Below, in pieces: positions 6,339 through 30,728 of a stretch of DNA of 63,022 bases. The DNA is from Patescibacteria group bacterium (GTDB lineage Bacteria; Patescibacteriota; Gracilibacteria; BD1-5; UBA2023). The notes below the pieces were generated by a model. The model made no database searches. It saw nothing but the letters and a program-made list of their open reading frames with translations, and was not told the origin of the DNA. The position numbers and the translations under genes are program-made. Location of the stretch: positions 1 through 63,022 of the forward strand of contig JAVKLK010000033.1 in the NCBI GenBank assembly GCA_031539165.1. Reading direction: 5' to 3'. Each line of letters begins with the position of its first letter. Position 1 is the first letter of the stretch.

Positions 6339-6413
6339 TGGTGCCAATGAGTGGAGTCGAACCACCGACCGCAGGGGTATGAATCCTGTGCTCTACCGCT
6401 GAGCTACATTGGC
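6339..6413 (-). tRNA. tRNA with CAT anticodon (elongator Met, or Ile2 if lysidine-modified)
   Basis: Reverse complement is GCCAATGTAGCTCAGCGGTAGAGCACAGGATTCATACCCCTGCGGTCGGTGGTTCGACTCCACTCATTGGCACCA. Paired 1:72, anticodon loop TTCATAC, encoded CCA. Confidence 0.85.
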
Positions 6414-15954: not shown

Positions 15955-16512
15955 ATGCAGACGTTTCTTAAAACAGAACAAGACGGGAACCGAGTAGAGT
16001 TCCTTGTCGATACCAATATCTTCTCTCTATCAAGCATTCTCAAGGCATCCTATATGTTTTTGGATGTTGCCTATTTCTTCTTCCGCAAGGACGAACAAGG
16101 AAATGTTGTAGTCCAAGTCACCAGAAAAGGTGACACTGGGATTGCTCCTGAGAGCCTCATCCGAGACTACAGTGATGAACTTCTTGCCACCGTTCTCCGA
16201 GAAAATCTTGAGCGAGACAACAAAGAAATTCGTGAAACTATCGTAAAAACCGCTCTTGGCGGGTATGCGGATGTACGAGGACATACGTCTGTAAATACAA
16301 ATCAGTATTCTCAGAATCTAATAGATTTTGATAAAGATATTGATGAAATCCTCAAAGAAATTGAAAGTGATCCAGATCTTCAGATAGACCAAGCAGAAAT
16401 CGATGCCGTTCTCAAAGAGATAGAATCATCTGAATCAAAGCGTAAAAATGGAAGCGTAACTATTGATCCTAATAAAGTTAAAGATGCTAAAGCAAAATTT
16501 TGATCTCGATAA
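15955..16512 (+). CDS. hxsD: HxsD-like protein with acidic repeat tail
   Basis: ATG 15955 (track TTG 15946). VEFLVDTNIFSLSSILKASYMFLDVAYFFF resembles the small His-Xaa-Ser system protein HxsD. The C-terminal tail carries the repeat IDEILKEIESDPD / IDAVLKEIESSES. Reads through TGA 16501-16503 to TAA 16510-16512. The family call is from memory of the family, not a search. Confidence 0.5.
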
Positions 16513-16690
16513 AGAGCTATACTCTGCATCCTCAATAGACACAACACTTGAGGCCTTTCAAGAGGGGTTTGAAGATGTGTATTTCAGTCGAACCGAATCT
16601 GGAATTGAGATACATGCAGAAAGTAAGGATGCCATCGAAATTGCCTTCTTGGAATTCGTGACCTACTGTACTTCTGTTTCTTCCCTATAG
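16484..16690 (+). CDS. second small HxsD-like protein (68 aa)
   Basis: ATG 16484: MLKQNFDLDKELYSASSIDTTLEAFQEGFEDVYF...IAFLEFVTYC. Overlaps the end of the previous CDS in another frame and stops 3 nt before the radical SAM gene. Confidence 0.4.
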   Translation: MLKQNFDLDKELYSASSIDTTLEAFQEGFEDVYFSRTESGIEIHAESKDAIEIAFLEFVTYCTSVSSL

Positions 16691-16693
16691 CTT

Positions 16694-18172
16694 ATGAGTA
16701 TGAATCTCCTTTCGCTTGCAAAAAATATCCATCCTAGTGTAGGATTCTTTCGATTCAAGAAATTGAATGGAAAAATTCTGATAACAAATGAAATAGGTGG
16801 ATGGCACTTCCTTGATGAAGATGAGTTTGCCTCATATGTTCAGGGTAAACTTGAGGATGGACCTTTATATGAAGCGTTAAAAAACAAGCTCTTTATAAAG
16901 GGACCCGATTATGAGGCTCAGATGGCAGCGGTATACCGGAAAAAAAATTCCTTCCTATTTTTCGGACCAACACTACACATGATTGTAACTACTCTTCGGT
17001 GTAATCATGCCTGCAAGTACTGTCATGCGGCTGTAGCCCCAATGACCGCAAAAGACTTGGATATGACAGTAGAAACAGCGGAAAAGGTTGTTGATACCAT
17101 CTTTTACTCATCGTCACCAAATCTGACCATTGAGTTTCAAGGAGGAGAAAGTCTGGTAAACTGGAAAGTTGTACAGTTTGTAATAGGATATGCCAAACAA
17201 AAGGCGTACTTTCTAAAAAAGAATCTTACCTTCTCTTTGGTCACCAATCTGTCTTTGATGGACGATGAAAAACTTACATATCTTCTAGATGAGGGGATTA
17301 ATATCTGTACGTCACTTGATGGAGATACGGAAACACATAATGATCAGCGAGTTTGGAAAGATGGAAATTCATATGAGAAAGCCACCTATTGGATTAAGAA
17401 AATAGAAAATGAGATGAAAAAGCGATGAGATGAATCCTACAAAGTATGAGCCCTAACTACTTGGACAAAAACAAGTATAAAGAATTATAAGAAGATAATT
17501 GATGCCTACGCATCTCTTGGAATAAACACAATTGGATTTAGATGGCTGAATCCGTATGGGTTTGCGGCTGCGCAAAAAGCCGACATGAGTTACTCTCTTG
17601 AAGAATATAAGGCTTTTTATAGGAATTGAATGGACTACATTCTTGATTTAAACAAGAAAGGGGTCTATCTTAGAGAAATGATTTCATCAGTATATCTGCA
17701 AAGCATACTAACAAACGAAGGAACTCAGTTTATGGATATTCGATCTCCTTCTGGGGTAGCACTATGATGAGTGGCATACAATTATGATGGGAAGGTCTAT
17801 GCGTCAGATGAATCACGCATGCTTTGAAGAATGGGCAAACAAGATTTTCTTCTCACTCCTATGCTAGAAACTGGAGAGGCCACATATACAGCCATGGCAA
17901 ACTCAGATGTGACAAAAATCGCAACTCTTGCAAGTACTTTGGATGGATTACCAGGATACAATGACTCTGTTTACAAACCCTATATGGGAACGGATATTAT
18001 CTATTCCTATACTCAATACGGGAATCCTTATAGTACTTTTGCGAAAGATGAGAAGAATAAAATGCATCTCGTAACTCTAGATTATCTGTTTGAAAAACTC
18101 CAAGATCCAGAATCAGCAAAAATATTCAAAAGCTGGGTATTTGGTGAAGATTTTCTAAAATCAGAGGCCTAG
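16694..18172 (+). CDS. radical SAM maturase, HxsB/HxsC-like (rSAM-1)
   Basis: Track ORFs 16694-17428 and 17831-18172 share a frame, joined through six TGA codons. CNHACKYC (CxxxCxxC) and FQGGES. N-terminal FRFKKLNGKILITNEIGGWHFLDEDEF is typical of peptide-maturase rSAMs. No Cys after the core. Confidence 0.85.
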
Positions 18173-18231
18173 CTGGTTCTTCTTGATTCTCGAGATTTAC
18201 ATGCTATACTTAAGTCACTAACATCACTATT

Positions 18232-18717
18232 ATGAGCATTAAACCAAAAAAGGAGCTCCCAAAAATTAAAAAAAATCTCTCTGGATTTCTGACACCAGAG
18301 AGCTCAAAAATAAAAAAACTTGATGCACTCGCTCTAGCAGTTGGAGCACTCGCCCTACTATGAGGTGTATCGGAAGCAGCAGCAAGCCACTCTAGCTCTA
18401 TAACTCCATCTCATAGCAATGCTGGAAGTCATGGAAATGGAGGAATCCAATCTGGAACCGCCTCGCACGTGAATGGAAATGGTATTGATGGAACAGTATG
18501 GTATAACCAAGGATTTGCAAACTGCGCCGTGAGTCAAGTAGTGAATTGACACGTAAGTGGAAGTATCCCGAGCCAAGTTCCTGGAACGGCAGATATTTCT
18601 GGATGAAATATTATGGGGACAAATTTATCTGCACACTCTAACAGCACAGTAAACAGTCACGCGAGTCATGGAAGTCATGGAAGTCATGGAAGTCATGGAA
18701 GTCATGCTGCTTACTAA
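18232..18717 (+). CDS. hxsA: His-Xaa-Ser repeat protein, putative RiPP precursor (HxsA-like)
   Basis: 161 codons. Lys-rich N-terminus, one hydrophobic segment LDALALAVGALALLGGV, then scattered SHSS, SHSN, SHGN, SHVN, GHVS, AHSN, SHAS, ending SHGSHGSHGSHGSHAAY. Three in-frame TGA codons. Confidence 0.75.
18664..18708 (+). repeat. tandem 9-nt coding repeat (agtcatgga x4 plus agtcatgct)
   Basis: Encodes (Ser-His-Gly)4-Ser-His-Ala at the C-terminus of the HxsA-like CDS. Confidence 0.95.
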
Positions 18718-18726
18718 ATTTTAGAC

Positions 18727-19422
18727 ATGAACAAAATAAAACAGTCACCTCAGATTATTATCGCTAGTATTCTGGCGTTTCTCATAGGATGTGGAGCTAT
18801 GTTCGCATGGTCTCAGCTACAGCATGTCTGAAATGGGAAATCAGAGAAAAAAGAAACTCGTGAAATGGTGCAAAAAAATTCTTCTGGCACTACTACCGGA
18901 ACCTGAGAGGTACCTTCTATTCGGATACCAACCCAATCTGATGTGTTTATGCAGAGCTTCTCTTGAATTATAAATGGAGAAGGATTTGATGCAAAGTTCA
19001 CAGCATACGGTCAAGCAAAAAAAACCATAGGCGACTATATAGCGAATGGAAGTGGTGGAATCTTTTACGAGTATCCAGGAACCGATTATGTAGTTCCGTC
19101 CCTTTTTGTCTGTGAAACCCTTACAACAGCAAAGAATATGAAAGACTTTGAAGGAGAGCTCCGGAATTCTATTCGCAAGTACCAAAGTGTTTTTACAATA
19201 CAGTCTAAATCTTCAGAAAACCCTGATTTTAAAATGCTCAATGAACATCTTCAGTCGTTTATATCAGGAAAAATACCATTTGAAGCATATCAAAAACTCG
19301 TAAGTCCTCTTCTTCAAAAATATGAGAAAGAGAGCAAGCTTTTTTCTTTCTTTCAAGAACTTATTGATATGAAAAAGGATGACACAGTTGACTGTGCCCA
19401 GCTCTCAAGAAAATACTTCTAA
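18727..19422 (+). CDS. putative lipoprotein
   Basis: ATG 18727, 9 nt after the precursor stop. Signal peptide with lipobox FLIGC. Joined through three TGA codons to track ORF 19138-19422. Confidence 0.6.
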
Positions 19423-19425
19423 GTT

Positions 19426-20898
19426 ATGTCCCGCGCCCATATACAATTTAGGGGGGTTATCGCCGATATTGACCAGAAGAAGAGTGGATGACATTTTCCC
19501 GATCAGCTCATTATTCGGGTTTGAAAATGATGTAACTTTCGTTGTGCCTTTTGTAATGTTGCAGAAAATGAAAAAGTCTTAAGCATAAAGGCATCACTCA
19601 AGGAAATTCTTGCCATAACCTTCCGCAAGATTCTTCATTCGAATCTTACCTCTGGAAGGATTAATGTTACCGTCTCTTGAGGCGAACCAAGTATATTTCA
19701 GGCAGAAACTATTTTTGTATTGAGATATTTTCGAAAGTATTTTGAAAAAAGAGGAATTACTGCTCAATTCGATATTCAAACGAACGCATCAAATATTGAT
19801 CAGAGATTCTCCGAAATACTCAAACAGGAATGAGTGGTTCAAGCTCTTGTTTCAACACATGCTCATGATCCCGATATATACAAAAAAATTATTGGTGTTC
19901 CCTATGAAACTCTGGGAAAGAAGGCTGAGCTAGGAATACGCAATCTCATCGAATGTTGAATTCCCGTTTCTCTTAATATAGTAATGAACTGAGTAAATGC
20001 TGATCATTACTTTGAACATATACAATACCTCGTTGCCTCTTTCCCAGAGATTGAACTTTATAACCTGGGTATGATGCAGCCTCACTGAATGGCACAAAAG
20101 AATTTAGAAGAGCTCTATCTTCCTTACGAAAAAGGACACCATCAGTATAACAGAGCAATTCACTATCTTAAGTGAATTGGGAAACGAGTTCATTCACATC
20201 TCGTAGGGCCACCTGTATGCTATATGGACGATGTAAGCTCAAGTCTTGAGTATCTTCATAACCGGAACATTTTCAGGGAATGACCTCAATCACAAACGCT
20301 TATTCAGGATATCAATGATGATAACAAAACTCATACCTCAGCCTGCAGAATGTGCAGAGCCAAGAGAGTATGCAGTGGAACATGGAAAGAATATGCTGAC
20401 AAACAGACGCTCCATCCAATCCCCACTGGACAATTTCTTATAAGCTCAAAATGATGCCATATATTTGAGAATAAAGCTGCTGCTGAAAAGCTTTATTCTC
20501 AAGGAATTCGTGAAGTATTCATTCTTGGAAAAGACAGTAATCAAATTATTGATGACATTGCTACGGTTAAGAATATCTGATACGAATCTATCATTTTAGT
20601 AGATACATTTGAAAATGTGAAAAATCCTTCGGACATATCCTGAGTAACAATTCAATCTTGGTTTGAAGACATGAAGAAGTACGGTCTTCAGAAGCTGCTT
20701 CATATAGAAAGATACAACCGAGAGAGTGGATTTCAGTTCCAGATTGACTCAGATGTACATATTCCCTATTTATCTTCAAAAGAAGCTGAGTGGATAAATC
20801 AACACCCTTTTCCAAGCATAGTATACCATGTTCACTCCTGGAGTCATGAGGCAAAGATGAAATGTCAAAATCGTTCAAATATAGTTTTCTGAAAATAA
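19426..20898 (+). CDS. radical SAM protein with C-terminal Cys motif and ~170 aa extension (rSAM-2)
   Basis: ATG 3 nt after the previous stop. IIRVGKGCNFRCAFCNV (CxxxCxxC). VSGGEPS with the first G encoded by TGA 19678-19680. Later CRMCRAKRVCSG (CxxCx5C). More than ten in-frame TGA codons. Tail matches track ORF 20671-20892. Confidence 0.85.
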
Positions 20899-20901
20899 CA
20901 T

Positions 20902-22347
20902 ATGAAAGTGGTAATTTTTTGATTTGGAAGACAAGGAAAAAAATATGCCTCGTATTTTAAATCCAAGGGAAATCACCAAATATTGATTGTTGGGAGGCAA
21001 AAAAGAAATGATGCCGATGGGCAGAAATATTGTGAATATGAACATTTCTTACAAGAATATAGATATACATCCTTTGATCTTGCGATAGTTGCAGTATCCC
21101 CCTTAAATGAACAAGAAAAGGTCATTCAAAACATTACCGAGCTTCCCATTTCGAAGATTCTCATAGAAAAACCCATAGGGAGTAGCCTGCTCCTAAAAAA
21201 ACTTTGCTCTAGAGAAAATGTTTTTTACTACTTCGATGAACTCTTTCATCCAGTATTCAACATGATGCTCAATCCAGAACGCTTACATATAGAAGCTGAG
21301 GATGAGAGTGATGCAATGAATATTATTGATCATGCACTCTCTTGATTTCTTTATCGAAAAGACTTTGAGTCAATCATATCAAATCTTTCAATAGAATATA
21401 AAAAATGATCTCCCAGCTATACTATTTATGAAAACGGAGAGACAATCGTTCATAAAGATGGAAATCTATCGTTCGGGAATCATGCTTTCTTCGAGTTAGC
21501 TTTTGATGCTGGAGTAAAATCTACTCTAGAAAGTATGGAAGATCCTGTAATCTGGGAAACAATTCGTATAAATAGCATATTCCTCCGGGAGTTTACGGAG
21601 CGCTGGAAACAAAAAAAGAATGTAGACTTATTTATAGGATTAAATGAATGTGAAGGACAATGTTTATTTTGTAATAAATGAGTGGGTCTCGTATGAGTTA
21701 CTGAGAGTGGAAAACAAAGTCAAGAAAACTGCATCCGCTACACTCCAAAAACAGAGGCAGAAGTATTCAAGATTGCAAAAAAGTGTTGGTGAAGTCCTGA
21801 AGTAATAACTATAACGGGATACGAGCCTATTCTTTACCCCAGGCTTACGGAACTACTTGACATAATTAGGGAAAGTAATCCCTCGGCCAAGATTCGCCTA
21901 AGAACGTCTGGATTTATAGAAATAAACCCAGTTCTCTACGAGAAGATAGATGGCGTCGAGCTTCCTATATATGGCTCAACTGAATTCATTCAAAATGCCA
22001 TGGGGGGCAACACAAAAGCATGGGAATGACTGCAGAAGAATATTGAAATAATCCAATCATATTGATTCATTGGGAAAATATTTTTTCAGACCATTCCTCT
22101 TCGAGAAAATATCCACGATATCAAGCATATACTTAACATGGTAGATGCTCTTGGAAATCAGAATGAGTTTCGGATTATATACCCCTATTTCATGCCAACT
22201 ATTCATATGGAACAGTTACTAAGTCGTGCAGAGGTGATAAAAACACTTCTGTCTGAATTGCCAGAAGTACTGAGAAAAAAATGTACTTTGGTTAACTTTC
22301 CAAGAAAACCATATTTAGATAACTTATTTAGAAGCATATGCCACTAG
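20902..22347 (+). CDS. Gfo/Idh/MocA-type NAD(P)-binding domain fused to a radical SAM domain (rSAM-3)
   Basis: N-terminus MKVVIFGFGRQGKKYASYF (GxGxxG, with one G encoded by TGA) and ILIEKP (the EKP signature). C-terminal half has CEGQCLFC (CxxxCxxC) and ITITGYEPIL. Joins track ORFs 20983-21345 and 22138-22347 in one frame. Confidence 0.8.
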
Positions 22348-23057
22348 TATCACGCCCTGTTTGATTCTGATTTAATATTCTCAGTGATGCTAAAAGCGAA
22401 TTTCACAGTCTGTTTCATGGAAATGAGATGGCAAGTTATTGCAAAATCATAAGTAGTGAATCTCACCCTGATATTCCAACCATAAAAGAAGTATATTTTT
22501 CATTTTGGAAAACAAGCGCCTACTCAAACGGAATTTTAAATTTTACAGAACTTCTCTCTCGGAGTCATTCACAAGAAGTACCAAAGATAGAAGCTCTATA
22601 CGAGAATCTTCTCAAGAAACAGTGAAAGCCAGGGGAAATATGAGAGATACACTACGGAATAGATTACTTAGACCATGATTTAGCCATATATTTTTGTTTT
22701 AAGGATAAATTAACTATCACAAAACTTCTTTCGGATGCATGTAAACTTCCGGAGGACTTTTTTTCGGAGTTCTTTTGGGAAGAGGCACGGAGGTTTCATC
22801 TTAAAATAAAGTACCATAGAAATGGGCAGGATATATCTGGAGTATTCACTTCGCATAATACCCCCGATATCAATGGCTTCCTCAAGTTTTTATCGAAATA
22901 TGAATCCGAAAAGCTCAAAGATATAGAGGCATATCACTCTAAAATAAAGGAAGAGTTTGTTATATATAATATTGAGTACTCGTTTAATTTTACAAAATGA
23001 AAGCTTGAAAATGTAGTATATTTCGTACTTCCTCGGTTTTGAGAGATTAGTGAGTAA
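22338..23057 (+). CDS. hypothetical protein
   Basis: ATG 22338 overlaps the previous stop by 10 nt (alternative ATG 22428). Includes track ORF 22428-22625 and reads through TGA codons to TAA 23055-23057. No motif recognised. Confidence 0.5.
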
Positions 23058-23784
23058 GTGACTGGTCTTTATATTTCTTTCAGATATGGAGATATCCGAG
23101 ATAGAGCGTCTTCATATCCGCATCGAATGCATTCCTAAGATCAAGCTGAATTCTTGAAAAGAATATTCTCCAAAAACGAGATTCAGAGAATTTATCACGC
23201 CAAAGATAATCTCGAAGGCACGACTTCAGGAAATGGATATCACAGCTCGAATTTATAAATAAAATAGCAAAGTCCTCTTCTCGAAAGGAGTAGCGTAGAG
23301 ACATAAAATCAAGGATTCCAATATCTCATGTTTCCATCTCAAAGAAATTGGAATTATCGAGACTTCCATGAATTAAAACTTTGCCAGAATCATTTTGGAT
23401 AGCATGAAGCGAAGATAGGGTAGCCCCCAGTTTCCCTCCTGTCTGAACAGAATACGTTGGACGTGTCGCTCATTTGCGCACATTCTCTATCTTGAGAAAT
23501 GAATAAGGTCATAGCTCACCTGAATCAATAATTCTTGGTATACGAATAGAGGAATCAGCAAGCAATTGATAAAAGTAATATTCCTTGTCCCTCTCGTGAG
23601 AAGAAACATAAAATTTATAAACCCACTGATATGCTGGATTAATGCAAACATACCCATAGTTTCCTGTAACTACCCGGAAGCCCTGCCCAGATAAAAAATC
23701 GTTCGGAAGAAGAGAGATAACTTCAGTCTTTCTCTCTTCCAATAAAACTCTTCGAAGCCGAATATCCTGGAAAAAATCGTTCAT
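23047..23784 (-). CDS. APH/choline-kinase-like phosphotransferase-fold protein
   Basis: Track ORFs 23509-23784 and 23080-23304 share a frame, joined through TGA codons. VLIHGSLDNSNFF (compare HGDLGDSNIF of aminoglycoside kinases) and GILDFMSLRYSFREEDFA (DFG-like region). Confidence 0.6.
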
Positions 23785-23840
23785 ACGTTATATAGTACTC
23801 TCTACCCTCTCGTTCTGGAAATTAATTTGCGAGGAAAAAA

Positions 23841-25136
23841 ATGAAACATACACTTCCCTCAAAAAGAAAGTTTTCTGTTAAAATGCCAACATTACTTGAG
23901 TCACTTCTCTGAGAATACGGTTCGCTTCTTGCGTGCTCCTTATTAGAAGTTCCAAGTTTCTCACAAATAGAAGAAATAGTGCAGAATACGGCAGTTCCCT
24001 TATCTACAAAAATTGCTGCAGCATCCAGACTGGAAAATATACCCTTCACCTCAGACGTATTAGATTTTCTTTGAAATGAAGAGATACATCCATCAATCCA
24101 AGCCGTCATAGTCAGTAAGTTTACCTTTGGGAAAGAAGTTAAGATTCTTGATTTTACAGATAGAATAAGTGATCTCCCCCTTCTAGTCCGGGAAGTTTTC
24201 TGGGCAGTTTTACCAATTCAAAGACGTGACATAGCTCAGATTATGAAGTCCACTTTGAGCCTATCAGAAAAGCAAATATTAGCTAAAAGAGCTCGAAATA
24301 GCATGCCTTCTCCAGAGCTATCATTTTGATTTCAAAGAATGCAACACTATCTCTATACCTGAAAGAGAGAAAGTAAATCTAATGCAATTAGTTGATGAAA
24401 TGAAGATTTTGAGAAACAAAAAACAATAATTGCATTGAAATTACATAAGCAAACCGAGCCTATATCAGTCAGCGAATACTGAATCATTACAGAAAATTCT
24501 CACTTCAATTCTTCTACCAGAGAAAAACATGCAGTTGCAGTAAATCGATATCAGCTTTCTCTTCTTCAATGGAAGAATCATTTCAAGATTATACCAAACA
24601 AAAGGAATCTTATTTTTTATTACAGGAAAGAACAGGGGGCTTTTGATCCGCACTACATTGAGATGGTACGCTTCTTAAAATGGTATATAGCTTCTTCCGG
24701 GTCACCACTATATACGGATATAAAGATAGCCCTTCGAGATAGGTCAAGTTTATTGCATGCAAAAAATATTTTCGGGGGAGAAGACTCTGACTATATCAGT
24801 GAAGAGTGACCCTTATTTCAAGCAAAGACAAGTGTTTTCTCAGATATGATTCACTTAAACCATGGAACTCCTGAAAAAACACCAGGGAGTTTAAGTATAG
24901 TCTGAGATGCAATTGCATCAGATCCTGAAAAATACTGCCCGTCATATATCCCCTTGCATCTTCTCTACTTTGGTGGAAGTAACTACACAACGATATATAG
25001 AAACTATAAATGAATACTACCAGGAAGTAACGAACTCGGTTTCCCTATGAATAAAAGTATGCGAGAGATTCTATCAGAGCTATTCGATGCTATAAGATGT
25101 GCTGAACTCACTCAATTGAAAAACGCTTGAATATAA
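23841..25136 (+). CDS. hypothetical protein (431 aa)
   Basis: GAGGAAAAAAATG ribosome-binding context at 23831-23843. The frame is open from 23841 to TAA 25134-25136 only when about nine TGA codons are read as sense. No motif recognised. Confidence 0.6.
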
Positions 25137-25166
25137 AATATTAAAAGTTGCCGAAGGAAAAACGAA

Positions 25167-26516
25167 GTGTACACTTTGAGCATGAAAAATAATCTTCTCG
25201 CCAAAGAAAAAACTACGAAAGAAAATCGAATTTGGGTCAGAATTGCAGCAGCCTGCAATGAGAAATGTAAATTCTGCCTCGATAGCGAAGCGCAGGATGG
25301 TCGATTGATTCCGGAAGATGAGGTAAAGCAAAAGATTCGCGAGGCTTTTGTTGCAGATACATATAATAGAGTGATTCTCTCATGAGGAGAAGCAAGCATT
25401 AATCCAAAGTTTTCTGAGTATATACAGTATGCAAAAGAAATTGGCTACAATCGGGTGCAGACGGTCACAAACGGTAATATGTTCTTCCGAAAAGAATTTT
25501 GTGACAAAGTAGTGAACGCCTGATTGGATGAGGTTACATTTTCAATGCACGGACACACTCCAGAGCTACACGATTATCTTACAGCAACACCCGGATCTTT
25601 TAAACGTGCACTTATCGGAATAGCAAACCTAAGAAAGTATCATCCTCATGTAATACTCAATATCGATATCGTGGTGAATCGACTCAATGTATCATTTCTT
25701 CCAAAAATAGTCTCCTTGTTCTTGAGATTTGGAATTATGGAATTCGATATACTCCAGATAATCCCCTTCTGAAGAGGTTTCAAAGAATTCAAAAATGAGC
25801 TTTTCTATAAAATCGAGGATGTACTCCCTCAGCTTCATGAAACATGGAATCTCTCAAAGATTCCATGAATGTATATTTGGACAAACCGTTTCCCTGCCGA
25901 AGCTTTTGAATGATACGAAGATCTAATACAGGATCCACGGAAAATAAAATCTGAGACTCTCGGAGAAGCAAGAAGTGAATACGATACTTTCATTCAGAGT
26001 CATGGAAAGAAGAAGCCTCGATGCTTCTGAGAAAGATGTGATGTCTGTTTCTTACAGCAATATTGTCATGATTTCCTCAAAAACAAAGATGCTCTTTTAG
26101 ATGGTAGAAAATACATCATTTGAGACAGGGCTTCCGGAGATATATCAGAAGCGGAACTCGTAGTTCTTAGGGGAGAAGAATTTCCAAGTGAGGTATATCG
26201 AAAATATGGGAATAATGGTGAAGAATTCATAGAAAAAATACAATCCCTGAAGCTAACAAAGACACAGCAGATTGTTAACGTACCAAAGTGCATACGAGCA
26301 GAGAATAACTCAGGGCAATATGAATGGTATTGAGATACGAGAGTTATTTGAGATGCTGAAGAATATACCGGACAGTACATTAAGAACTTCTATCGGAAGA
26401 AATCCCCGCGCTGCAAGTCCTGCATTCATTTTGAGAAGTGTGAGGGAATACATATAAATTTCATTCGATCCTATGGATTCCAAATAATGAAACCTATCCA
26501 GAAGAAAGAAGCATAA
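25167..26516 (+). CDS. radical SAM protein with C-terminal Cys-rich region (rSAM-4)
   Basis: Track ORFs 25167-25385 and 25524-25772 plus the downstream frame. AACNEKCKFC (CxxxCxxC). ILSGGEAS with a G encoded by TGA. CFGERCDVCFLQQYC and RCKSCIHFEKCEG near the C-terminus. GTG 25167 follows AAGGA; alternative ATG 25182. Confidence 0.85.
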
Positions 26517-26565
26517 ATCTCTGAAAAAGGTTGCTATTGTCGGAATTTAGGATTATATATTCGGT

Positions 26566-27555
26566 ATGGCAAACATCTGATACATCCAAGTAAATCGATA
26601 CTGCAACAATCAGTGCCATTTTTGTTCAAACCCATCAAACGGAAAAAACATAAGCTATGAAAGAGGGCAAAAGATTATCGATGAGTTTGTATCAAAGAAA
26701 TACAAGGGAATAATATTCACAGGCGGTGAGCCAACTCTATCTCCCGATTTAGCTCGTTGGATAGCATACGCGAAGTCTGTATGAATGGAATCTCGAGTAA
26801 TATCAAACTGAATGCGCTGCTCAGATTTCTGATATACAAAAAAACTTGCAGATGCTGGACTAGAACTCATTCACTTTTCTGTATTTTCGTACAATCCAAA
26901 AGTACACGACTTCCTCACAGATACTCCAGGATCATGGAAAAAACTAATGCTTTCCATATGAAATGCCCTAAAACTGGGTATTAGAGTTCAAATCAATACG
27001 GTCATTAATCGCTATAATCAGAACCATCTAGATGTAACAGTGAAATTTCTCTGTGGACAATTCCCAGAAATCCGTCACTTTGTATGGAACAATCTCGACC
27101 CCCTCATGATGCGAAAAACGGAGATTGCATACTCTACACTTCCAGATTTCTCTACATTTGAGAGGCCACTACAAAAGGCTATGACTTTTTTAGAGGAAAC
27201 TGGAAGAACATTCCGGGTGGAACGGGTACCTCTTTGTTATATGAGAGGCTTTGAGCATTTCTCAACAGAAACCAGAAAGATAGTCAAGGATGAAGAACGA
27301 ATTGTTCACTTCCTAGATGAAAGAGAAGTGGTAGAGCAAAAGTCAGAGTGGTTTTTTCATGACAAATCAGAGACTTGCAAAGGCTGTGATTTGAATGCAA
27401 TTTGTGCTGGAATCTGGCTTGCAAAACCAGCAAATATTTTCTGAGTCGATCATCCATGATATTTCAAAGATATCGAATATAAACCTCAAAAGCTTTCCTT
27501 GCAAGAAAAAGAGCTTATTATCTCAAAAATTAAAAATACTGGCAAATATGCCTAA
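26566..27555 (+). CDS. radical SAM protein (rSAM-5), paralogue of rSAM-4
   Basis: MANIGYIQVNRYCNNQCHFC (CxxxCxxC), FTGGEPTL, HDFLTDTPGSWKKL (compare HDYLTATPGSFKRA in rSAM-4), and C-terminal CKGCDLNAICAG. Includes track ORF 27040-27444. Confidence 0.85.
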
Positions 27556-28435
27556 TATTATTATCAATAATATCTGTAATCAGCGCTGCAGCTATTGTTT
27601 CGCAATGGATAGTATGACAGTGGATAAACTCCCCTTGCAGAATCAATCACTCGGAACATACCTTCAAATATTAAAATTCCTGAAAAAAGAGGGGGAGAAA
27701 GAGGTTCGACTTCTATGAGGTGAACCCCTTCTACATCCAGAAATATCAAAGTTCATAAAAATTGCCAACAAAGGGTGATTCTACACGCGAATATTCTCTA
27801 ATATTAATTTCTCTCCTGAATTTCTCCAGAAAACACTTCAGGGAAATAGCATCCCCAATGCTACTAACTGCAATATCAATAATCGTGATTTCTATTCAGA
27901 TAGCGAGTATGCTCAAGTGAAAAAAAACATTATTTACCTTCGAGAGAGCGGCTGTGATGTAACGATTGGCTACAATGTATACTCTTTAGAAAAACCATTC
28001 TCGGATATAATAGATATTTCAAGGAGCACGGGAATTCGGAGAATTAATCTTAAGGTTACCAATACCGCGTTGGGATCCCCCCTTATTGTTGACACATCAT
28101 CTAGAGAGTTTGGTAAATACTTAGCTACGGCTGTCATTCCATATCTCGGAGAATTTGAGTTCCTATTTTCTTGTTGATTAAGCAAGTCGATTTTCAGTGA
28201 AGAAGAAATTACCACCATGAATCAGCACTGACTTCTGCCAAAATGGTGATGCGATGGAAATATGGGAAAATACGATATAGATGTAGACGGATCAATATTT
28301 AAATGCTTTCCAACTCGTCCCCTTTACCTAAAGAAATCTATTCATATAAGCAATTTCTCTCCGAGACAAAAATCCATAGAAAAATTTGCTCAGCTAGAAA
28401 ACTCTACCGACATATGCATAGCTCATAAACTTTAA
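27548..28435 (+). CDS. radical SAM protein with partial SPASM/twitch-like motif (rSAM-6)
   Basis: ATG 27548 overlaps the previous stop by 8 nt. NNICNQRCSYC (CxxxCxxC). LLGGEPLL with the first G encoded by TGA. GCDGNMGKYDIDVDGSIFKCFP resembles the start of a SPASM domain. Includes track ORF 27917-28177. Confidence 0.8.
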
Positions 28436-28439
28436 ATCT

Positions 28440-29501
28440 ATGTTTCCTTTTACTCTCTGATATTCAGAAAATCCCGTTGTTCAAAAATATCAAGACTTAT
28501 ACGCAAAAGATCTCCTAGAAATAGCAATGGAGCTAGAGACATCTTTTGAGAAAATGGATTCTAAATTTCTCCTTCTTGGAGATATATCAACTACGCTTGA
28601 AGCTTTTCGAGCCAAGGAGTTAGAGGCAAGTGAAGCGCTAAAATTTCTCCAACAAGAGTTTGAATATTGGAAATCGAACTGTAAATCACGTATGTTTTCA
28701 TTTTCATGAAACAGTATCCCTGGAGTAGCAGTGCTTCTCTCAGAAAAAGACGCAAATATCCATGCACGAGTACATGATGGACACCCTGAACATGTGCGAA
28801 CCAATGTCGTTTGATGATGGGGGAAGGTTCCAGTAGAAGACTGGATCACCCTCTATGAGAAAAGCTTTTCAATTCTCAAAACATCCTCACCCTGATTCTG
28901 CAATGAACTTTCATGAATCATAAATAAAATAATTCCAATGGACGTGAGTATCAGGGTACATAATTCTTGCTCGTATGATCGATGCATATGACATCTTTAT
29001 TTAAGTTACCCCTTGGAAATAGATGTCCCCGAACTAGCCGTACTTGAAGCTCTCATACATGAGTCGAACCACAATAAATTAAACCTTATTCTAAAGCAGG
29101 ATCCCCTCGTTCTAAATGGACGTGAAACCAAATATTATTCCCCCTACCGCCCAGATGCGCGACATATTCATGGGATTTACCTTGGACTCCATGCAATGGC
29201 TTGAGTATTTTATACACTATTCGAACTTCACTCAACTGGGAAATATCTTCTCAATCATCGATGGCTAGAGAAGGCAACGGCATACTTCATCAAAGATAGC
29301 CTTTCTATAAAAGTACTCGATCGATATGCACAACTTACAGATCTTGGGAAAACTGTCTATGAAGAAATGAAAGCGGTTCATGAAGAAACCGCGAAAATGG
29401 TTAGTCAGTGTGTAACACCCGATATTCTTAATAGAGCAAAACACATAAATCAGGAGCATTTTATGAAAGTGCAGATGATTCACTCAGATTTGTTATATTA
29501 A
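28440..29501 (+). CDS. HExxH-motif domain protein (family co-occurring with rSAM peptide maturases)
   Basis: ATG 4 nt after the rSAM-6 stop. LIHESNHNKLN (HExxH), then YSPYRPDARHIHGIYLGLHAMA. Joins track ORFs 28527-28709 and 29013-29204 in frame. Confidence 0.65.
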
Positions 29502-30728
29502 TTAAAGGTGGAGGGCACTTTGAATCCAGCGAAGTAATTCATAGAAGATAGACTTCCCTGATACCCCTGTAATCACCCACCCTAAAAATCAGTAAAAGAA
29601 GAAGGAGGGTGGTTGATGCAGAACAAACTCTCGGAATAAAAAGGCTTCTCCATAATCATGAATTCGTTGTTTGAATGCGGAAAGAAGTGTTAGATGTTTT
29701 GGGACAATAGAAAAAACAGGCTGAGAAGTATCTATTGAGAGAAATGAAAGATCATTCTTTTCAGGATTGTAAGCATTCTTCTCACGAGCTATTCTCATGA
29801 AAGAATCCCAAAGTATAGATGTTTCTTTCATTGCAATCAAATCTCATACCCTCAAATCAGAAACAGGAATACGCAAATTTCCTCAAATCAATGTCCATAT
29901 ACTACGAATCCTAGGAGAGAAATAAAATATCTTCTCTAGAAGAAAAACTGATACTGTCTGCCAGAAAAGAAAAAATATTCCAGCAATAAGAAGTACAGAA
30001 AAGTACGATTGAATAAATACCAAAAGAGATTTATTTTGGAAGCTTTCAAATAAGACGGCAAGTATCATAAGAAGTGTTCCAAATAGAAGCACTCGGAGCT
30101 GTTTCAAAGTGAGTTTTGGAAGAAGAATCATGAGTATTCATGCCTTCATAATCAAATAATTCTCTCTACCAAAACTCACTATAACCCTATCAATATCTAC
30201 GAGTAGCCCCAGTCCAAATGGTGATGCAGAGAGGAAAAAGAGAGATGAGAAAACAAGCATTCTAATTCACTGAATTCCCCAAGAGCGAAATTTAAACGGG
30301 TGTTCCTCTAAGTTTGGAAGAATTCAACCTAAGCCAAAAAAAAGAAGTATTCGTTGAAAGATTGCCAGCAGAAATACTCCTGCTGCCATATTCGACAGAA
30401 GAGCGAAGGGAATGCTTTTAAGAAAACCTATACAAAATATAACACCAAGAGCGAGAATATTTTCAAGCTCCAAGATACGCCTCACATAAACAAAAAATCA
30501 GAGGGAGAAAAAAACAATCAGTGTTAGATAGTCATGAGTGGCTAACTCCGGTCCTAATTCGTGCCTTACCAAAAGGAGGCCAAAGATACAACTCACGAGA
30601 ATCGGGACAATTCAGTACTTTTTTTTCTCAAGGAAACATAGAAATAAGAGTACTACAGCGAAAACCCCCCATTCAATGGAAATGATTGGAGGGATTCCAG
30701 AGAATATAGTGGGGGGAACTCAAGGCAT
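29502..30728 (-). CDS. polytopic integral membrane protein
   Basis: Joins track ORFs 29883-30131 and 29589-29840, extending upstream to ATG (rc 30726-30728) through TGA codons. About 8 hydrophobic segments and a soluble C-terminal part. The start is 1 nt after the upstream stop. Confidence 0.6.

What the first reader, a model, noticed from the sequence alone, without database searches (positions are those of the whole stretch)
15955..29501. A 13.5 kb His-Xaa-Ser peptide island with six radical SAM enzymes in a reduced table-25 genome
Seen: between uvrB and a surface-protein module lie two tightly packed plus-strand gene strings. Gaps are 3-59 nt and several starts overlap the preceding stop. 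String 1 (15955-23057): two HxsD-like proteins, rSAM-1 (CNHACKYC), a His-Xaa-Ser repeat precursor, a lipoprotein, rSAM-2 (CNFRCAFC), a Gfo/Idh/MocA-rSAM fusion (CEGQCLFC) and an unknown protein. String 2 (23841-29501): a 431 aa unknown protein, rSAM-4 (CNEKCKFC), rSAM-5 (CNNQCHFC), rSAM-6 (CNQRCSYC) and a HExxH-motif protein. An antisense kinase-fold gene separates the strings. Established: the His-Xaa-Ser system (HxsA repeat peptide, two rSAM maturases HxsB/HxsC, and HxsD) is defined only by comparative genomics; to my knowledge it has no characterised product. Inference: this is an expanded Hxs-type RiPP-like pathway with three times the usual number of rSAMs, plus redox, hydroxylase-like and kinase-like tailoring. 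That is a large investment for a small epibiont-type genome, so the product is probably important, for example a modified surface or secreted peptide or a metal-binding molecule.
Basis: partly seen in the sequence, partly recalled or inferred. Interest (0 to 1): 0.9.

Follow-up and report, generated by a model that had tools for sequence, protein, structure and literature searches.

The report
Expanded His-Xaa-Ser radical-SAM maturation island
A 14.8 kb gene cluster in a Gracilibacteria genome is an enlarged, unusual version of the His-Xaa-Ser (HXS) system, which was shown in E. coli in 2026 to block phage DNA entry; here six radical-SAM enzymes and a hydroxylase most likely modify a small exported histidine-rich repeat protein.

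Summary
Read with table 25, window 15955-29501 holds HxsD, an HxsD-like mini-protein, HxsB, an HxS-repeat protein, six radical-SAM (rSAM) enzymes, an aKG-HExxH hydroxylase and a kinase-fold gene. HxsD, HxsB and the hydroxylase pass curated NCBIfam cut-offs. No rSAM reaches an HxsC or primary-metabolism cut-off.

- The two strings form one system. The same genes lie in one same-strand operon in another Gracilibacterium (L028). HxsD/HxsB/HxsA4 also sit beside orthologues of the hydroxylase, rSAM4 and rSAM5 in high-GC Myxococcota/Pseudomonadota MAGs, which carry seven rSAMs.
- "No characterised product" is out of date. A 2026 paper shows E. coli HxsABCD is an anti-phage system with HxsA as an exported, rSAM-matured effector.
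- The expansion is not unique to this genome. HxsD-HxsD'-HxsB-HxsA is a conserved core in Gracilibacteria, followed by a hypervariable set of rSAMs and tailoring enzymes.

New here:
- The whole Gracilibacteria HxsB clade has lost the auxiliary Fe-S cysteines while keeping the SPASM-type fold.
- The substrate has a conserved leader, an export segment and a slippage-prone (SHG)n tail.

The biological role (phage barrier, prey interaction or metal binding) is inferred only. Verdict: new variant of a known kind, interest 0.6.

The parts
15955..16512 (+). HxsD (185 aa). The N-terminal 90 aa match the HxsD model. The acidic C-terminal extension is conserved in Gracilibacteria.
   Evidence: TIGR03976 54.1 bits, cut-off 50. 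Orthologues at 37-55% identity in L001-L003, L026, L029 and L030.
16484..16690 (+). HxsD-related mini-protein (68 aa). It overlaps the end of hxsD by 29 nt.
   Evidence: NF038315 19.5 bits, below the cut-off of 41. A 64-70 aa gene sits in the same position, also overlapping hxsD, in L002, L003, L024-L030. The L010 counterpart passes the cut-off (52.2 against 41).
16694..18172 (+). HxsB: an rSAM maturase with an N-terminal RRE-like domain and a SPASM-type C-terminal fold that lacks all auxiliary-cluster cysteines.
   Evidence: TIGR03978 464 bits, cut-off 370. Only 4 Cys in the whole protein. Seven conserved SPASM Cys are replaced. The loss is shared by all 120 closest homologues. AF2 model of a 67%-identical homologue: pLDDT 87; best PDB matches CteB and anSME.
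18232..18717 (+). HxsA-like substrate (161 aa). In order: a conserved leader motif, a hydrophobic export segment ending AAA|S, a G/S/N/H-rich region with the motif S-x-V-V-N-G-H-x-S, and an (SHG)n tail ending AAY.
   Evidence: Sub-threshold HxsA4 (31.1) and HxsA3 (27.5) hits. Family alignment A1, with 11 database members. Shorter members pass the HxsA3/A4 cut-offs. The gene lies right after hxsB in 9 CPR loci.
18664..18706 (+). Perfect 9-nt tandem repeat (AGTCATGGA x 4.8) encoding the (SHG)n tail. Copy number differs between close strains.
   Evidence: TRF score 86, 100% matches. P0122 (96% identical) has one unit fewer. L026 and L027 differ by one unit.
18727..19422 (+). Membrane-anchored or lipoprotein partner (231 aa; lipobox-like LIGC).
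   Evidence: No family hit. A 31%-identical orthologue sits at the same position in L028. Alignment with the L001 neighbour.
19426..20898 (+). rSAM2: an HxsC-like rSAM with a C-terminal CxxCx5C motif and a 170-aa extension.
   Evidence: Best NCBIfam hit is HxsC, 71.7 bits against a cut-off of 267.9. PF04055 52 bits. Orthologues in L028 (48%) and L026 (40%). Paralogue of rSAM4 and rSAM5.
20902..22347 (+). Fusion of a Rossmann-like N-domain with rSAM3 (CEGQCLFC).
   Evidence: PF04055 46.3 bits; GFO_IDH_MocA 21.2 bits, below the cut-off of 24. The two halves are separate genes in L028 (28% and 30% identity). An N-domain-only gene lies next to the rSAM4 orthologue in L018. No close relative found in the metagenome scan.
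22338..23057 (+). Orphan 239-aa protein. Its start overlaps the fusion gene by 10 nt.
   Evidence: No Pfam, NCBIfam, PADLOC or PDB hit. Only one real homologue (84% identity) among 1.84 billion representatives. Absent from L028.
23047..23784 (-). Kinase-fold (APH-like) protein. The catalytic Asp is not conserved.
   Evidence: PF01636 28.5 bits, partial match. A 29%-identical homologue follows the rSAM2 orthologue on the same strand in L026. The catalytic-loop motif reads HGS or HSN instead of HGD.
23841..25136 (+). Unknown 431-aa protein, the first gene of string 2. It is lineage-specific.
   Evidence: No hit in any library or in PDB. No homologue in any fetched locus.
25167..26516 (+). rSAM4: an HxsC/HxsC4-like rSAM with a C-terminal domain carrying 8 further invariant Cys.
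   Evidence: HxsC4 124.6 bits against a cut-off of 500. More than 120 full-length Gracilibacteria homologues at 54-66% identity. Orthologue at 40-41% identity in high-GC Hxs loci. Invariant Cys listed. AF2 model and fold search.
26566..27555 (+). rSAM5: an HxsC-like rSAM with CxxCx5C. It is always paired with rSAM4.
   Evidence: HxsC 94.2 bits against a cut-off of 267.9. 62-78% identity in L016, L018, L021 and L028; 47% in the high-GC loci.
27548..28435 (+). rSAM6: a short rSAM (295 aa).
   Evidence: PF04055 44.7 bits. Orthologues in L028 (55%), in L023 directly upstream of an HxsA-like gene (51%), and in L029 next to an HxsA-like gene (44%).
28440..29501 (+). aKG-HExxH-type peptide hydroxylase (motif HESNH).
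   Evidence: TIGR04267 63.3 bits, cut-off 40. Orthologues lie beside rSAM4/5 in L016, L018, L019, L021 and L028 and in the high-GC loci.
29502..30728 (-). Polytopic membrane protein (about 8 TM segments). Possible member of the island.
   Evidence: GC 0.373, like the island. Opposite-strand membrane proteins of 335-443 aa with a similar TM pattern neighbour the rSAM4/rSAM5/HExxH triad in L016, L018, L019 and L021, but show no detectable sequence similarity to this one.

Best explanation
The island is one extended His-Xaa-Ser (HXS) maturation system of the HxsA3/A4 type.

Its substrate is the 161-aa HxsA-like protein. This has a conserved N-terminal leader (K-x-P-K-x-K...F-L-T-x-E-S-x-K-I-x-K-K), a hydrophobic export segment with an AxA-type cleavage site, and a Gly/Ser/Asn/His-rich region. 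That region carries the invariant S-x-V-V-N-G-H-x-S motif and a C-terminal (SHG)n-aromatic tail.

In the cytoplasm, HxsB binds the substrate. HxsB has an RRE-like N-domain, an rSAM core and a SPASM-type fold without auxiliary clusters. Together with three HxsC-like paralogues (rSAM2, rSAM4, rSAM5), which are probably partnered by HxsD and the HxsD-like mini-protein, and with two further rSAMs, it performs radical C-H chemistry on His/Ser motifs. The aKG-HExxH enzyme adds hydroxyl groups.

The modified protein is then exported and stays at the cell surface, possibly with the adjacent membrane-anchored protein.

Shown here: family memberships, domain make-up, synteny and co-inheritance. Inferred: substrate assignment, order of steps, chemistry and export.

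The biological role is inference only. By analogy with E. coli HXS, the single most likely role (about 0.3) is a surface barrier against phage or foreign DNA entry. Prey or host interaction and metal binding are close alternatives.
For: - Curated HMM memberships: HxsD 54.1 (cut-off 50), HxsB 464 (cut-off 370), aKG-HExxH 63.3 (cut-off 40). Six PF04055 domains.
- HxsD-HxsD'-HxsB-HxsA-like is a conserved four-gene core in nine CPR loci: the window, L001, L003, L024, L025, L026/27, L028, L029 and L030.
- L028 has both strings in one same-strand operon, with orthologues of Lipo, rSAM2, the Gfo-like domain, rSAM3, rSAM4, rSAM5, rSAM6 and HExxH.
- High-GC loci (L006, L007, L008, L010, L013) put HxsD, HxsD_rel, HxsB and HxsA4 (all above cut-off in L010) next to HExxH and an rSAM4 orthologue (40-41% identity). 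Three of them (L006, L007, L010) also show the rSAM5 orthologue (47%); L008 and L013 end before it.
- HxsA-like genes lie directly beside the HExxH and rSAM4 orthologues in L019/L020, beside rSAM6 orthologues in L023 and L029, and upstream of an rSAM4-like gene, with one rSAM gene between, in L024.
- rSAM2, rSAM4 and rSAM5 are mutual paralogues. Their best hits are HxsC/HxsC4, and each has a C-terminal CxxCx5C motif.
- The HxsB model's nearest structures are peptide/protein maturases: CteB, anSME, TigE, ChlB and SuiB.
- In E. coli, HxsB/C/D mature HxsA, HxsC binds HxsD, and mature HxsA is exported (PMC13128918).
- aKG-HExxH enzymes hydroxylate His, Asp and Gln residues in rSAM-modified peptides (PMC12636437).
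- Repeat copy number varies between near-identical strains.
Against: - No rSAM reaches the HxsC (267.9) or HxsC4 (500) cut-off, and the substrate is below the HxsA3/A4 cut-offs.
- The rSAM4-rSAM5-HExxH triad occurs without any HxsA/HxsB/HxsD gene within 10 kb in L016, L018 and L021. It may therefore have other substrates.
- The rSAM4 core resembles small-molecule or lipid rSAMs (GDGT-MAS, BlsE, viperin, MoaA) as much as peptide maturases.
- HxsB lacks the auxiliary-cluster cysteines; mutating two of them in E. coli abolishes defence.
- The mature substrate has no Lys or Arg and no peptidoglycan-binding domain. The E. coli 'basic repeats bind DNA, anchored to peptidoglycan' model therefore does not transfer directly.
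- Export is judged by eye only; no signal-peptide predictor was run.
- No chemistry has been demonstrated for any member of this subtype.
Confidence: 0.65

Rival explanations
1. Two independent systems happen to be adjacent. String 1 is an Hxs core that matures the HxS-repeat protein. String 2 (rSAM4-rSAM5-rSAM6-HExxH) is a separate, lineage-wide Gracilibacteria module. It acts on a different substrate, for example the neighbouring 970-aa surface protein, another envelope component or a small molecule.
For: - The triad has more than 120 full-length homologue clusters in Gracilibacteria. It occurs with no HxsA/B/D within 10 kb in L016, L018 and L021.
- A Surf970-like gene lies near the triad or the Hxs core in the window, L001, L003, L016, L018 and L030.
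- An antisense gene and a 56-nt divergent gap split the two strings in the window.
- The rSAM4 core is structurally closest to non-peptide rSAMs.
Against: - L028 joins both strings in one same-strand operon.
- High-GC loci keep HxsD/B/A4 together with HExxH and the rSAM4/rSAM5 orthologues despite only about 40% identity to the window, which argues for co-inheritance as a unit.
- In L019/L020 an HxsA-like gene directly follows the HExxH and rSAM4 orthologues. In L024 a second HxsA4-type gene lies two genes upstream of an rSAM4-like gene.
Confidence: 0.2
2. A classical RiPP natural-product pathway. The HxS protein is only a precursor, from which a small, heavily cross-linked peptide is cut and released. 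That peptide would act as an antibiotic, a signal, or a His-rich metallophore for Ni/Zn/Cu.
For: - The architecture is leader plus core. HxsB has an RRE-like N-domain and resembles sactipeptide and cyclophane maturases.
- aKG-HExxH enzymes are RiPP tailoring enzymes.
- High-GC HxsA4 proteins have no hydrophobic export segment and look like plain precursors.
- The tailoring sets are hypervariable (halogenase, sulfotransferase, AsnB, aminotransferase, carbamoyltransferase), which is typical of natural-product clusters.
- The mature region has 14 His and no Lys or Arg.
Against: - No peptidase, ABC exporter or immunity gene lies in the island.
- The substrate family has a conserved hydrophobic segment followed by an AxA-like site, as in Sec-exported proteins.
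- The only experimentally studied Hxs system yields a processed protein effector, not a small peptide.
Confidence: 0.12
3. Primary-metabolism rSAM enzymes (MoaA, PqqE, haem or cofactor maturases) or an assembly chimera, with no Hxs biology.
For: JGI names one rSAM4 homologue 'MoaA'. The GC content of the island differs from its flanks.
Against: - MoaA/PqqE/AhbD-type scores are 26-75 bits against cut-offs of 231-500, while HxsB and HxsD pass theirs.
- Synteny with L028, L026 and L029 spans the whole island.
- The rSAM clusters are 2-7 GC points below their flanks in 6 of 7 related loci, so the dip is a property of the cluster.
- Near-identical copies of two island genes exist on other contigs: P0122 at 96% and P0252 at 84%.
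Confidence: 0.03

Closest known systems
Canonical HXS anti-phage system of E. coli/Klebsiella (HxsD-HxsB-HxsC-HxsA; TIGR03976-03979; PMC13128918)
   Same: - HxsD and HxsB are members by curated HMM.
- The substrate is an HxS-repeat protein with an N-terminal export signal.
- HxsC-like rSAM paralogues are present.
- The logic is the same: cytoplasmic rSAM maturation followed by export.
   Different: - 14-15 genes instead of four, with six rSAMs instead of two.
- Gene order is D-D'-B-A-... rather than D-B-C-A.
- No rSAM passes the HxsC cut-off.
- HxsB has lost all auxiliary-cluster Cys.
- The substrate has no peptidoglycan-binding domain and no basic residues. It carries (SHG)n rather than SHRSS-type repeats.
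- There is an extra HxsD-like protein, an aKG-HExxH hydroxylase, a kinase-fold gene and orphan genes.
- The host is a table-25 CPR bacterium, whereas 99.7% of HxsA proteins surveyed in that paper are from Pseudomonadota.
HxsA3/HxsA4-type variant curated in NCBIfam (NF038309, NF038313, NF038315 HxsD_rel, NF038332 HxsC4), as seen in the high-GC MAG loci L006-L013
   Same: - The start is the same: HxsD-HxsD_rel-HxsB-HxsA.
- The tail is (HGS)n ending in an aromatic residue.
- Several HxsC-like rSAMs are present.
- The same HExxH hydroxylase and the same rSAM4/rSAM5 pair are present (40-47% identity).
   Different: - The window's proteins fall below every one of these cut-offs.
- The substrate has gained a hydrophobic export segment and an 80-aa spacer.
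- HxsB has no auxiliary clusters.
- rSAM2, rSAM3, rSAM6, Lipo, the kinase-fold gene and the orphans have no counterparts in the high-GC loci.
- I found no published description of this subtype's gene set.
rSAM plus aKG-HExxH RiPP systems (ChlB-type cyclophane formation with beta-hydroxylation; PflC/PosC; BpmH)
   Same: An rSAM maturase and an aKG-HExxH hydroxylase are combined in one cluster. His is a known hydroxylation target. ChlB is among the structural neighbours of the HxsB model.
   Different: - Here the hydroxylase is a free-standing protein, not fused to the rSAM.
- The substrate is a long exported repeat protein.
- No cyclophane motif has been shown.
SPASM-domain peptide/protein maturases (CteB, anSMEcpe, SuiB)
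   Same: The overall fold of the HxsB model matches: CteB E 6e-18 over 465 columns; anSME TM-score 0.76-0.79 normalised to the target.
   Different: The seven Cys that ligate auxiliary [4Fe-4S] clusters are all replaced in the window's HxsB, and the four C-terminal ones are absent in all 120 closest homologues.

Membership tests
HXS system (canonical HxsABCD) | HxsB: equivalog model TIGR03978 at or above the cut-off, full length | tested here: met
   464.4 bits against 370, model positions 3-466 of 466.
HXS system (canonical HxsABCD) | HxsD: equivalog model TIGR03976 at or above the cut-off | tested here: met
   54.1 bits against 50. Relatives carry PF27806 HxsD.
HXS system (canonical HxsABCD) | HxsC: equivalog model TIGR03977 at or above the cut-off | tested here: not met
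   Best scores are rSAM5 94.2, rSAM2 71.7 and rSAM4 64.6 bits against 267.9. HxsC is nevertheless the top or second hit for all three.
HXS system (canonical HxsABCD) | HxsA: a protein with tandem His-Xaa-Ser repeats encoded in the cluster | tested here: met
   7 HxS motifs, with a perfect 9-nt x 4.8 repeat at 18664-18706. However, it is below the curated HxsA3/A4 cut-offs (27.5 against 65; 31.1 against 55).
HXS system (canonical HxsABCD) | HxsA carries a signal peptide and a peptidoglycan-binding domain | tested here: not met
   No Pfam domain at all. A hydrophobic segment plus an AAA|S site is seen by inspection and is conserved in the family, but no signal-peptide predictor was available. 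The peptidoglycan-binding domain is absent.
HXS system (canonical HxsABCD) | HxsB has a second Fe-S cluster motif; E. coli C399/C402 are needed for defence | tested here: not met
   All seven SPASM-region Cys are replaced in the window. The four C-terminal ones are absent in 120 of 120 closest homologues.
HXS system (canonical HxsABCD) | Four-gene operon in the order D-B-C-A (99.6% of systems) | tested here: not met
   The order here is D-D'-B-A-Lipo-rSAM2-..., 14-15 genes in all.
HXS system (canonical HxsABCD) | Blocks phage DNA entry | not testable with these tools
   Needs experiment. PADLOC 2023 has no HXS model and gives only generic pVip rSAM hits.
HxsA3/A4-type extended Hxs variant (NCBIfam) | HxsD_rel (NF038315), HxsA4 (NF038313) or HxsA3 (NF038309), and HxsC4 (NF038332) at or above their cut-offs | tested here: not met
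   Window scores are 19.5 against 41, 31.1 against 55, 27.5 against 65 and 124.6 against 500. Homologues in the same family do pass: L010 HxsD_rel 52.2 and HxsA4 91.2; the L024 84-aa protein 61.2; P0131 67.6.
HxsA3/A4-type extended Hxs variant (NCBIfam) | Shared gene set and order with loci whose members pass the cut-offs | tested here: met
   D-D'-B-A plus HExxH plus rSAM4/rSAM5 orthologues in L006, L007, L008, L010 and L013.
aKG-HExxH peptide hydroxylases (TIGR04267 / IPR026337) | Domain model at or above the cut-off, with the HExxH motif | tested here: met
   63.3 bits against 40, model positions 4-177 of 177; motif HESNH. Activity was not tested.
Radical SAM superfamily | PF04055 above the gathering score, with a CxxxCxxC motif | tested here: met
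   Six proteins, 44.7-79 bits against 29.5. Motifs.
RiPP pathway (leader-dependent peptide maturation) | Precursor with leader and core; RRE-type recognition domain; dedicated protease or exporter | tested here: inconclusive
   A conserved leader motif and an RRE-like beta3-alpha3 N-domain in the HxsB model are present. No protease or exporter gene is present.
Gfo/Idh/MocA oxidoreductases | PF01408 at or above the gathering score | tested here: not met
   21.2 bits against 24. No PDB sequence match. A Rossmann-like GxGxxG motif is seen by inspection only.
APH-type kinases | PF01636 match with the catalytic HxD...N loop | tested here: inconclusive
   28.5 bits against 23.2, but covering only model positions 22-111 of 239. 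The catalytic Asp is replaced: HGS in the window, HSN in the L026 homologue.
Primary-metabolism rSAMs (MoaA, PqqE, AhbD, NirJ, BioB-like) | Equivalog model at or above the cut-off | tested here: not met
   All are 26-75 bits against cut-offs of 231-650.

The most novel reading that the evidence does not exclude
Gracilibacteria have turned the HXS system into a lineage-wide genomic island of two parts. One part is a conserved core: HxsD-HxsD'-HxsB-HxsA, with an HxsB that has dispensed with its auxiliary Fe-S clusters. The other is a hypervariable arsenal of up to about nine rSAMs and assorted tailoring enzymes.

Together these would decorate a Sec-exported, slippage-variable His-repeat surface protein. 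On this reading the protein is a principal determinant of phage or DNA exclusion, or of prey attachment, in these largely CRISPR-poor epibionts. The chemistry installed on the HxS/VVNGH motifs would be of a new kind.
Probability: 0.3. Interest if true: 0.8.

Novelty: new variant of a known kind. Interest (0 to 1): 0.6.

Why it matters
HXS is the only defence system reported to stop phage DNA at entry, and its chemistry (a +8 Da change on one HxS motif) is unsolved.

This island and its relatives show a second, much larger form of the system, spread across an entire candidate phylum with reduced genomes. It has a different substrate design: no peptidoglycan anchor and no basic residues. Its HxsB works without auxiliary clusters. 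It also has a conserved partnership with an aKG-HExxH hydroxylase and two HxsC-like rSAMs.

That gives three things:
- Natural 'mutants' for dissecting what each Hxs component does.
- A defined minimal conserved set (D, D', B, A, rSAM4, rSAM5, HExxH) to reconstitute.
- A candidate explanation for how CPR bacteria with few classical defence systems protect or arm their surface.

About 1% of a genome of roughly 1-1.5 Mb is spent on it.

Tried and rejected
- Table-11 reading was rejected.
- A metagenome scan with the Gfo-rSAM3 fusion found no relative.
- The look-up of encoding contigs, the search of protein representatives and structure prediction refuse table-25 translations. Structures were therefore predicted for database homologues (P0133 for HxsB, P0001 for rSAM4), not for the window's own proteins. 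The orphans (431 aa, 239 aa, Lipo) could not be modelled.
- PDB sequence searches for the 431-aa protein, the 239-aa protein and the fusion gave nothing.
- A TGA-free fragment of the 239-aa protein searched against 1.84 billion representatives found one real homologue only.
- PADLOC gave only generic viperin-like rSAM hits.
- Promoter and terminator scans were not above shuffled controls, so operon boundaries rest on gene spacing only.
- I tested whether the antisense membrane protein (29502-30728) is homologous to the opposite-strand membrane proteins beside the triad elsewhere. The TM pattern is similar but no sequence signal was found.
- I looked for mobile-element boundaries. There is no tRNA, integrase-like ORF or other rSAM gene next to the island.
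- The GC dip was considered as evidence of recent horizontal transfer. I rejected that, because the rSAM clusters are lower in GC than their flanks in 6 of 7 related loci.
- A literature search for Gracilibacteria rSAM clusters found nothing relevant.

Full report
**Genetic code and gene map**

The window is read with TGA as a sense codon.
- TGA (1277) outnumbers TAA (666) and TAG (488), and table-25 ORFs are far longer than table-11 ORFs.
- Every island gene except the 68-aa one has in-frame TGA.
- TGA codons of rSAM4, rSAM5 and HExxH align with Gly in table-11 orthologues at 9 of 20 aligned sites, and never with Trp.

| Coordinates | Strand | Gene |
|---|---|---|
| 15955-16512 | + | HxsD |
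| 16484-16690 | + | 68-aa HxsD-like protein (HxsD') |
| 16694-18172 | + | HxsB (CNHACKYC) |
| 18232-18717 | + | HxS-repeat protein |
| 18727-19422 | + | membrane-anchored/lipoprotein-like protein (Lipo) |
| 19426-20898 | + | rSAM2 (CNFRCAFC) |
| 20902-22347 | + | Rossmann-like + rSAM3 fusion (CEGQCLFC) |
| 22338-23057 | + | 239-aa orphan |
| 23047-23784 | - | kinase-fold protein |
| 23841-25136 | + | 431-aa unknown |
| 25167-26516 | + | rSAM4 (CNEKCKFC) |
| 26566-27555 | + | rSAM5 (CNNQCHFC) |
| 27548-28435 | + | rSAM6 (CNQRCSYC) |
| 28440-29501 | + | HExxH protein (HESNH) |

Gaps run from -29 to +59 nt. UvrB lies upstream (953 bits). An antisense polytopic membrane protein and a 970-aa surface protein lie downstream. 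No other CxxxCxxC ORF exists in the 63 kb window.

**Family assignments**

| Protein | Model | Score (bits) | Cut-off |
|---|---|---|---|
| HxsD | TIGR03976 | 54.1 | 50 |
| HxsB | TIGR03978, full length | 464 | 370 |
| HExxH protein | TIGR04267, aKG-HExxH peptide beta-hydroxylase | 63.3 | 40 |
| rSAM5 | HxsC | 94.2 | 267.9 |
| rSAM2 | HxsC | 71.7 | 267.9 |
| rSAM4 | HxsC | 64.6 | 267.9 |
| rSAM4 | HxsC4 | 124.6 | 500 |
| Repeat protein | HxsA4 / HxsA3 | 31.1 / 27.5 | 55 / 65 |
| 68-aa protein | HxsD_rel | 19.5 | 41 |

- The first three rows pass their curated cut-offs. All six rSAMs also pass Pfam PF04055.
- For rSAM2, rSAM4 and rSAM5, HxsC or HxsC4 is the best or second-best hit, but far below the cut-off.
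- Scores against MoaA, PqqE and haem-maturase models are 26-75 bits against cut-offs of 231-650. The primary-metabolism alternative therefore fails.
- The Gfo/Idh/MocA hit is sub-threshold (21.2 against 24).
- The APH hit is partial, and the catalytic Asp is not conserved.

**What is already known**

That is out of date. A 2026 Nature Communications paper (PMC13128918) reports the following.
- E. coli HxsABCD is a broad anti-phage system that blocks genome entry.
[quoted passage not shown] It is processed, carries a +8 Da change on an SHRSS motif, and acts in the periplasm.
- HxsC binds HxsD.
- Both Fe-S motifs of HxsB and HxsC matter for function.
- 99.7% of the HxsA proteins they surveyed are from Pseudomonadota, and 99.6% of systems have the gene order D-B-C-A.

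The original comparative-genomics definition is attributed to Haft and Basu (cited in PMC9062424). NCBI's pipeline already names many Gracilibacteria proteins 'His-Xaa-Ser system radical SAM maturase HxsB'.

**Are the two strings one system?**

Three lines of evidence say yes.
1. L028 (GCA_031386685.1), a Gracilibacterium whose HxsB is 63% identical, has one same-strand operon: HxsD, a 66-aa gene, HxsB, a 261-aa HxsA-like protein ending ...HGSHGSHGSHAAY (the window's own tail), Lipo (31%), rSAM2 (48%), the Gfo-like domain and rSAM3 as two separate genes (28% and 30%), a methyltransferase, rSAM4 (62%), rSAM5 (78%), rSAM6 (55%) and HExxH (41%). The window differs by fusing the Gfo-like domain to rSAM3, and by carrying the 239-aa orphan, the antisense kinase-fold gene and the 431-aa gene in place of the methyltransferase.
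2. High-GC, table-11 MAG loci found through HxsB (Myxococcota/Pseudomonadota; L006, L007, L008, L010, L013) share the layout. It runs HxsD, HxsD_rel, HxsB, HxsA4 with 15 HGS repeats (all above cut-off in L010), four rSAMs or rSAM-like genes, and then HExxH (83 bits). After that comes an rSAM4 orthologue (40-41% identity, including the C-terminal Cys motif). An rSAM5 orthologue (47%) follows where the fetched locus extends that far, as in L006, L007 and L010. These loci are one related clade, so they count as one independent lineage. Even so, the gene set has travelled together across about 60% sequence divergence.
3. HxsA-like genes sit directly beside 'string 2' enzymes elsewhere. One follows the HExxH and rSAM4 orthologues in L019/L020. 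Others lie beside rSAM6 orthologues in L023 and L029. In L024 one lies upstream of an rSAM4-like gene, with one rSAM gene between them.

Against this, the rSAM4-rSAM5-HExxH triad also occurs with no Hxs core within 10 kb in L016, L018 and L021. I therefore keep 'two modules with different substrates' as a rival at 0.2.

**The wider pattern in Gracilibacteria**

HxsB and rSAM4 each have more than 120 full-length homologue clusters at 52-69% identity, almost all from Gracilibacteria. At least nine contigs, matched by length, carry both.

The four-gene core HxsD-HxsD'-HxsB-HxsA-like recurs in nine CPR loci. One of them is the complete genome of the human-oral Ca. Gracilibacteria HOT-871, where it follows the ATP synthase operon.

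What follows the core is hypervariable. There are three to about nine further rSAMs, plus a Trp-halogenase, a sulfotransferase with an APS kinase, 2OG oxygenases, AsnB, aminotransferases, a carbamoyltransferase, a PP-loop ATPase and methyltransferases.

So 'six rSAMs' is typical of this lineage rather than special to this genome. I found no paper describing these clusters.

**The substrate**

A profile of four HxsA-like proteins retrieves only 11 proteins from 5.8 billion. All share four features:
- a leader (K-x-P-K-x-K...F-L-T-D-E-S-G-K-I-x-K-K);
- a hydrophobic segment ending in an AxA-like site;
- an invariant S-x-[VI]-[VI]-N-G-H-x-[SN] motif;
- an (HGS)n tail ending in W, Y or C.

Short members pass the HxsA3/A4 cut-offs. 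The window's copy fails because of an 80-aa spacer.

Its tail is a perfect 9-nt x 4.8 tandem repeat. Copy number differs between near-identical strains: the window against P0122, and L026 against L027.

The mature part has 14 His, no Lys or Arg, and no peptidoglycan-binding domain. The E. coli model of electrostatic DNA binding anchored to peptidoglycan therefore cannot simply be carried over.

The island has no protease or ABC exporter. That favours Sec export of a protein over release of a small RiPP. This is an inference from inspection; no signal-peptide predictor was available.

**The enzymes**

- **HxsB.** The window's HxsB has only four Cys. All seven SPASM-region Cys conserved in high-GC HxsB are replaced. 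None of the 120 closest homologues keeps the four C-terminal ones, and about 100 keep none at all. Yet the clade is well conserved (65% mean column identity). An AF2 model of a 67%-identical member (pLDDT 87, pTM 0.88) matches CteB, anSMEcpe, TigE, ChlB and SuiB over nearly its full length. The SPASM-type fold and an RRE-like N-domain are therefore kept while the cluster ligands are gone. In E. coli, the C399A/C402A mutations abolish defence.
- **rSAM2, rSAM4 and rSAM5.** These are mutual paralogues, each with a C-terminal CxxCx5C motif. The rSAM4 family has eight further invariant Cys. Only its rSAM core matches known structures (GDGT-MAS, BlsE, viperin, SkfB, MoaA), so its substrate class is not settled by fold.
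- **aKG-HExxH enzymes.** These hydroxylate His, Asp and Gln residues in rSAM-modified peptides, and can cleave backbones oxidatively (PMC12636437).

**Most likely mechanism**

This is an extended HXS-type pathway.
1. HxsB recognises the leader.
2. HxsB and the HxsC-like rSAMs, partnered by HxsD and HxsD', carry out radical chemistry on the HxS and VVNGH motifs.
3. HExxH hydroxylates.
4. The product is exported to the cell surface.

I put 0.65 on this system-level statement. The biological role is inference. A barrier to phage or DNA entry, by analogy with E. coli, is the single most likely role at about 0.3. It fits the hypervariable tailoring and the slippage-variable repeats, both hallmarks of an arms race. 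Prey or host interaction and metal binding are not excluded.

**Other points**

- The GC dip of the island (0.375 against 0.445) is shared by the homologous clusters in 6 of 7 loci, so it is not evidence of recent transfer.
- No tRNA or integrase-like ORF flanks the island.
- The 239-aa protein is a true orphan: one homologue among 1.84 billion representatives.

**Verdict**

This is a new variant of a known kind, interest 0.6. The value lies in four things:
- the cluster-less HxsB clade;
- the conserved link between the Hxs core and the HExxH/rSAM4/rSAM5 module across phyla;
- the different substrate design;
- the lineage-wide, hypervariable rSAM islands of a reduced-genome phylum.

Noticed in passing
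window 30730-33642 (-); also L001 19639-21432, L003 4245-8231, L016 16694-19471, L018 14781-17201, L030 19714-21450: A large signal-peptide-bearing surface protein with no Pfam domain (Surf970) lies next to the Hxs core or the rSAM4/5/HExxH triad in six loci, in varying orientation. Homologues are 24-37% identical. This could be conserved synteny or a functional link, for example as a partner or target.
   Followed up: partly
window 29502-30728 (-); L018 12207-13538, L019 7616-8836, L021 14346-15659, L016 15577-16584: An opposite-strand polytopic membrane protein of 335-443 aa sits beside the rSAM4/5/HExxH triad in several Gracilibacteria. The four in other loci are homologous to each other. 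The window's has a matching TM pattern but no detectable sequence similarity to them.
   Followed up: yes
window 16000-30000: The island is about 7 GC points below its flanks (0.375 against 0.445). Homologous rSAM clusters are 2-7 points below their flanks in 6 of 7 related loci, so this is a property of the cluster rather than a mark of recent transfer.
   Followed up: yes
window 18664-18706: A perfect 9-nt tandem repeat (AGTCATGGA x 4.8) encodes the SHG tail. Close relatives differ by exactly one unit (the window against P0122; L026 against L027), which suggests slippage-driven length variation.
   Followed up: partly
window 20902-22347 vs L028 14418-16155 and L018 9272-9997: The Rossmann-like domain and rSAM3 are fused in the window but are separate adjacent genes in L028. 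In L018 the Rossmann-like domain alone precedes the rSAM4 orthologue.
   Followed up: partly
L010 (CAMAWH010000012.1, titled Klebsiella pneumoniae MAG): This contig has GC 0.64 and a Myxococcota-like seven-rSAM Hxs cluster. It is probably mis-binned or mislabelled rather than Klebsiella.
   Followed up: no
database proteins P0121-P0130: Public gene calls for these CPR lineages render TGA as Trp (table 4): W appears where the window's table-25 reading has G. This degrades HMM scores and exact-match look-ups for table-25 organisms.
   Followed up: no
window 6181-6255 and 6339-6413 (-): Two adjacent tRNA-Met (CAT) genes lie 84 nt apart. A tRNA-Leu (CAA) is at 39809-39891. None of them borders the island.
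   Followed up: no
window 40225-44592 (+): A 1455-aa ORF, the longest in the window, was not examined.
   Followed up: no
L026/L028/L025 upstream and L021/L022 downstream: In several Gracilibacteria the rSAM island abuts the same HSP20-MgtC-sigma-factor block, in opposite orientations. In L029/L030 it follows the ATP synthase operon, and in the window it follows uvrB. The island thus occupies different housekeeping contexts in different lineages.
   Followed up: partly
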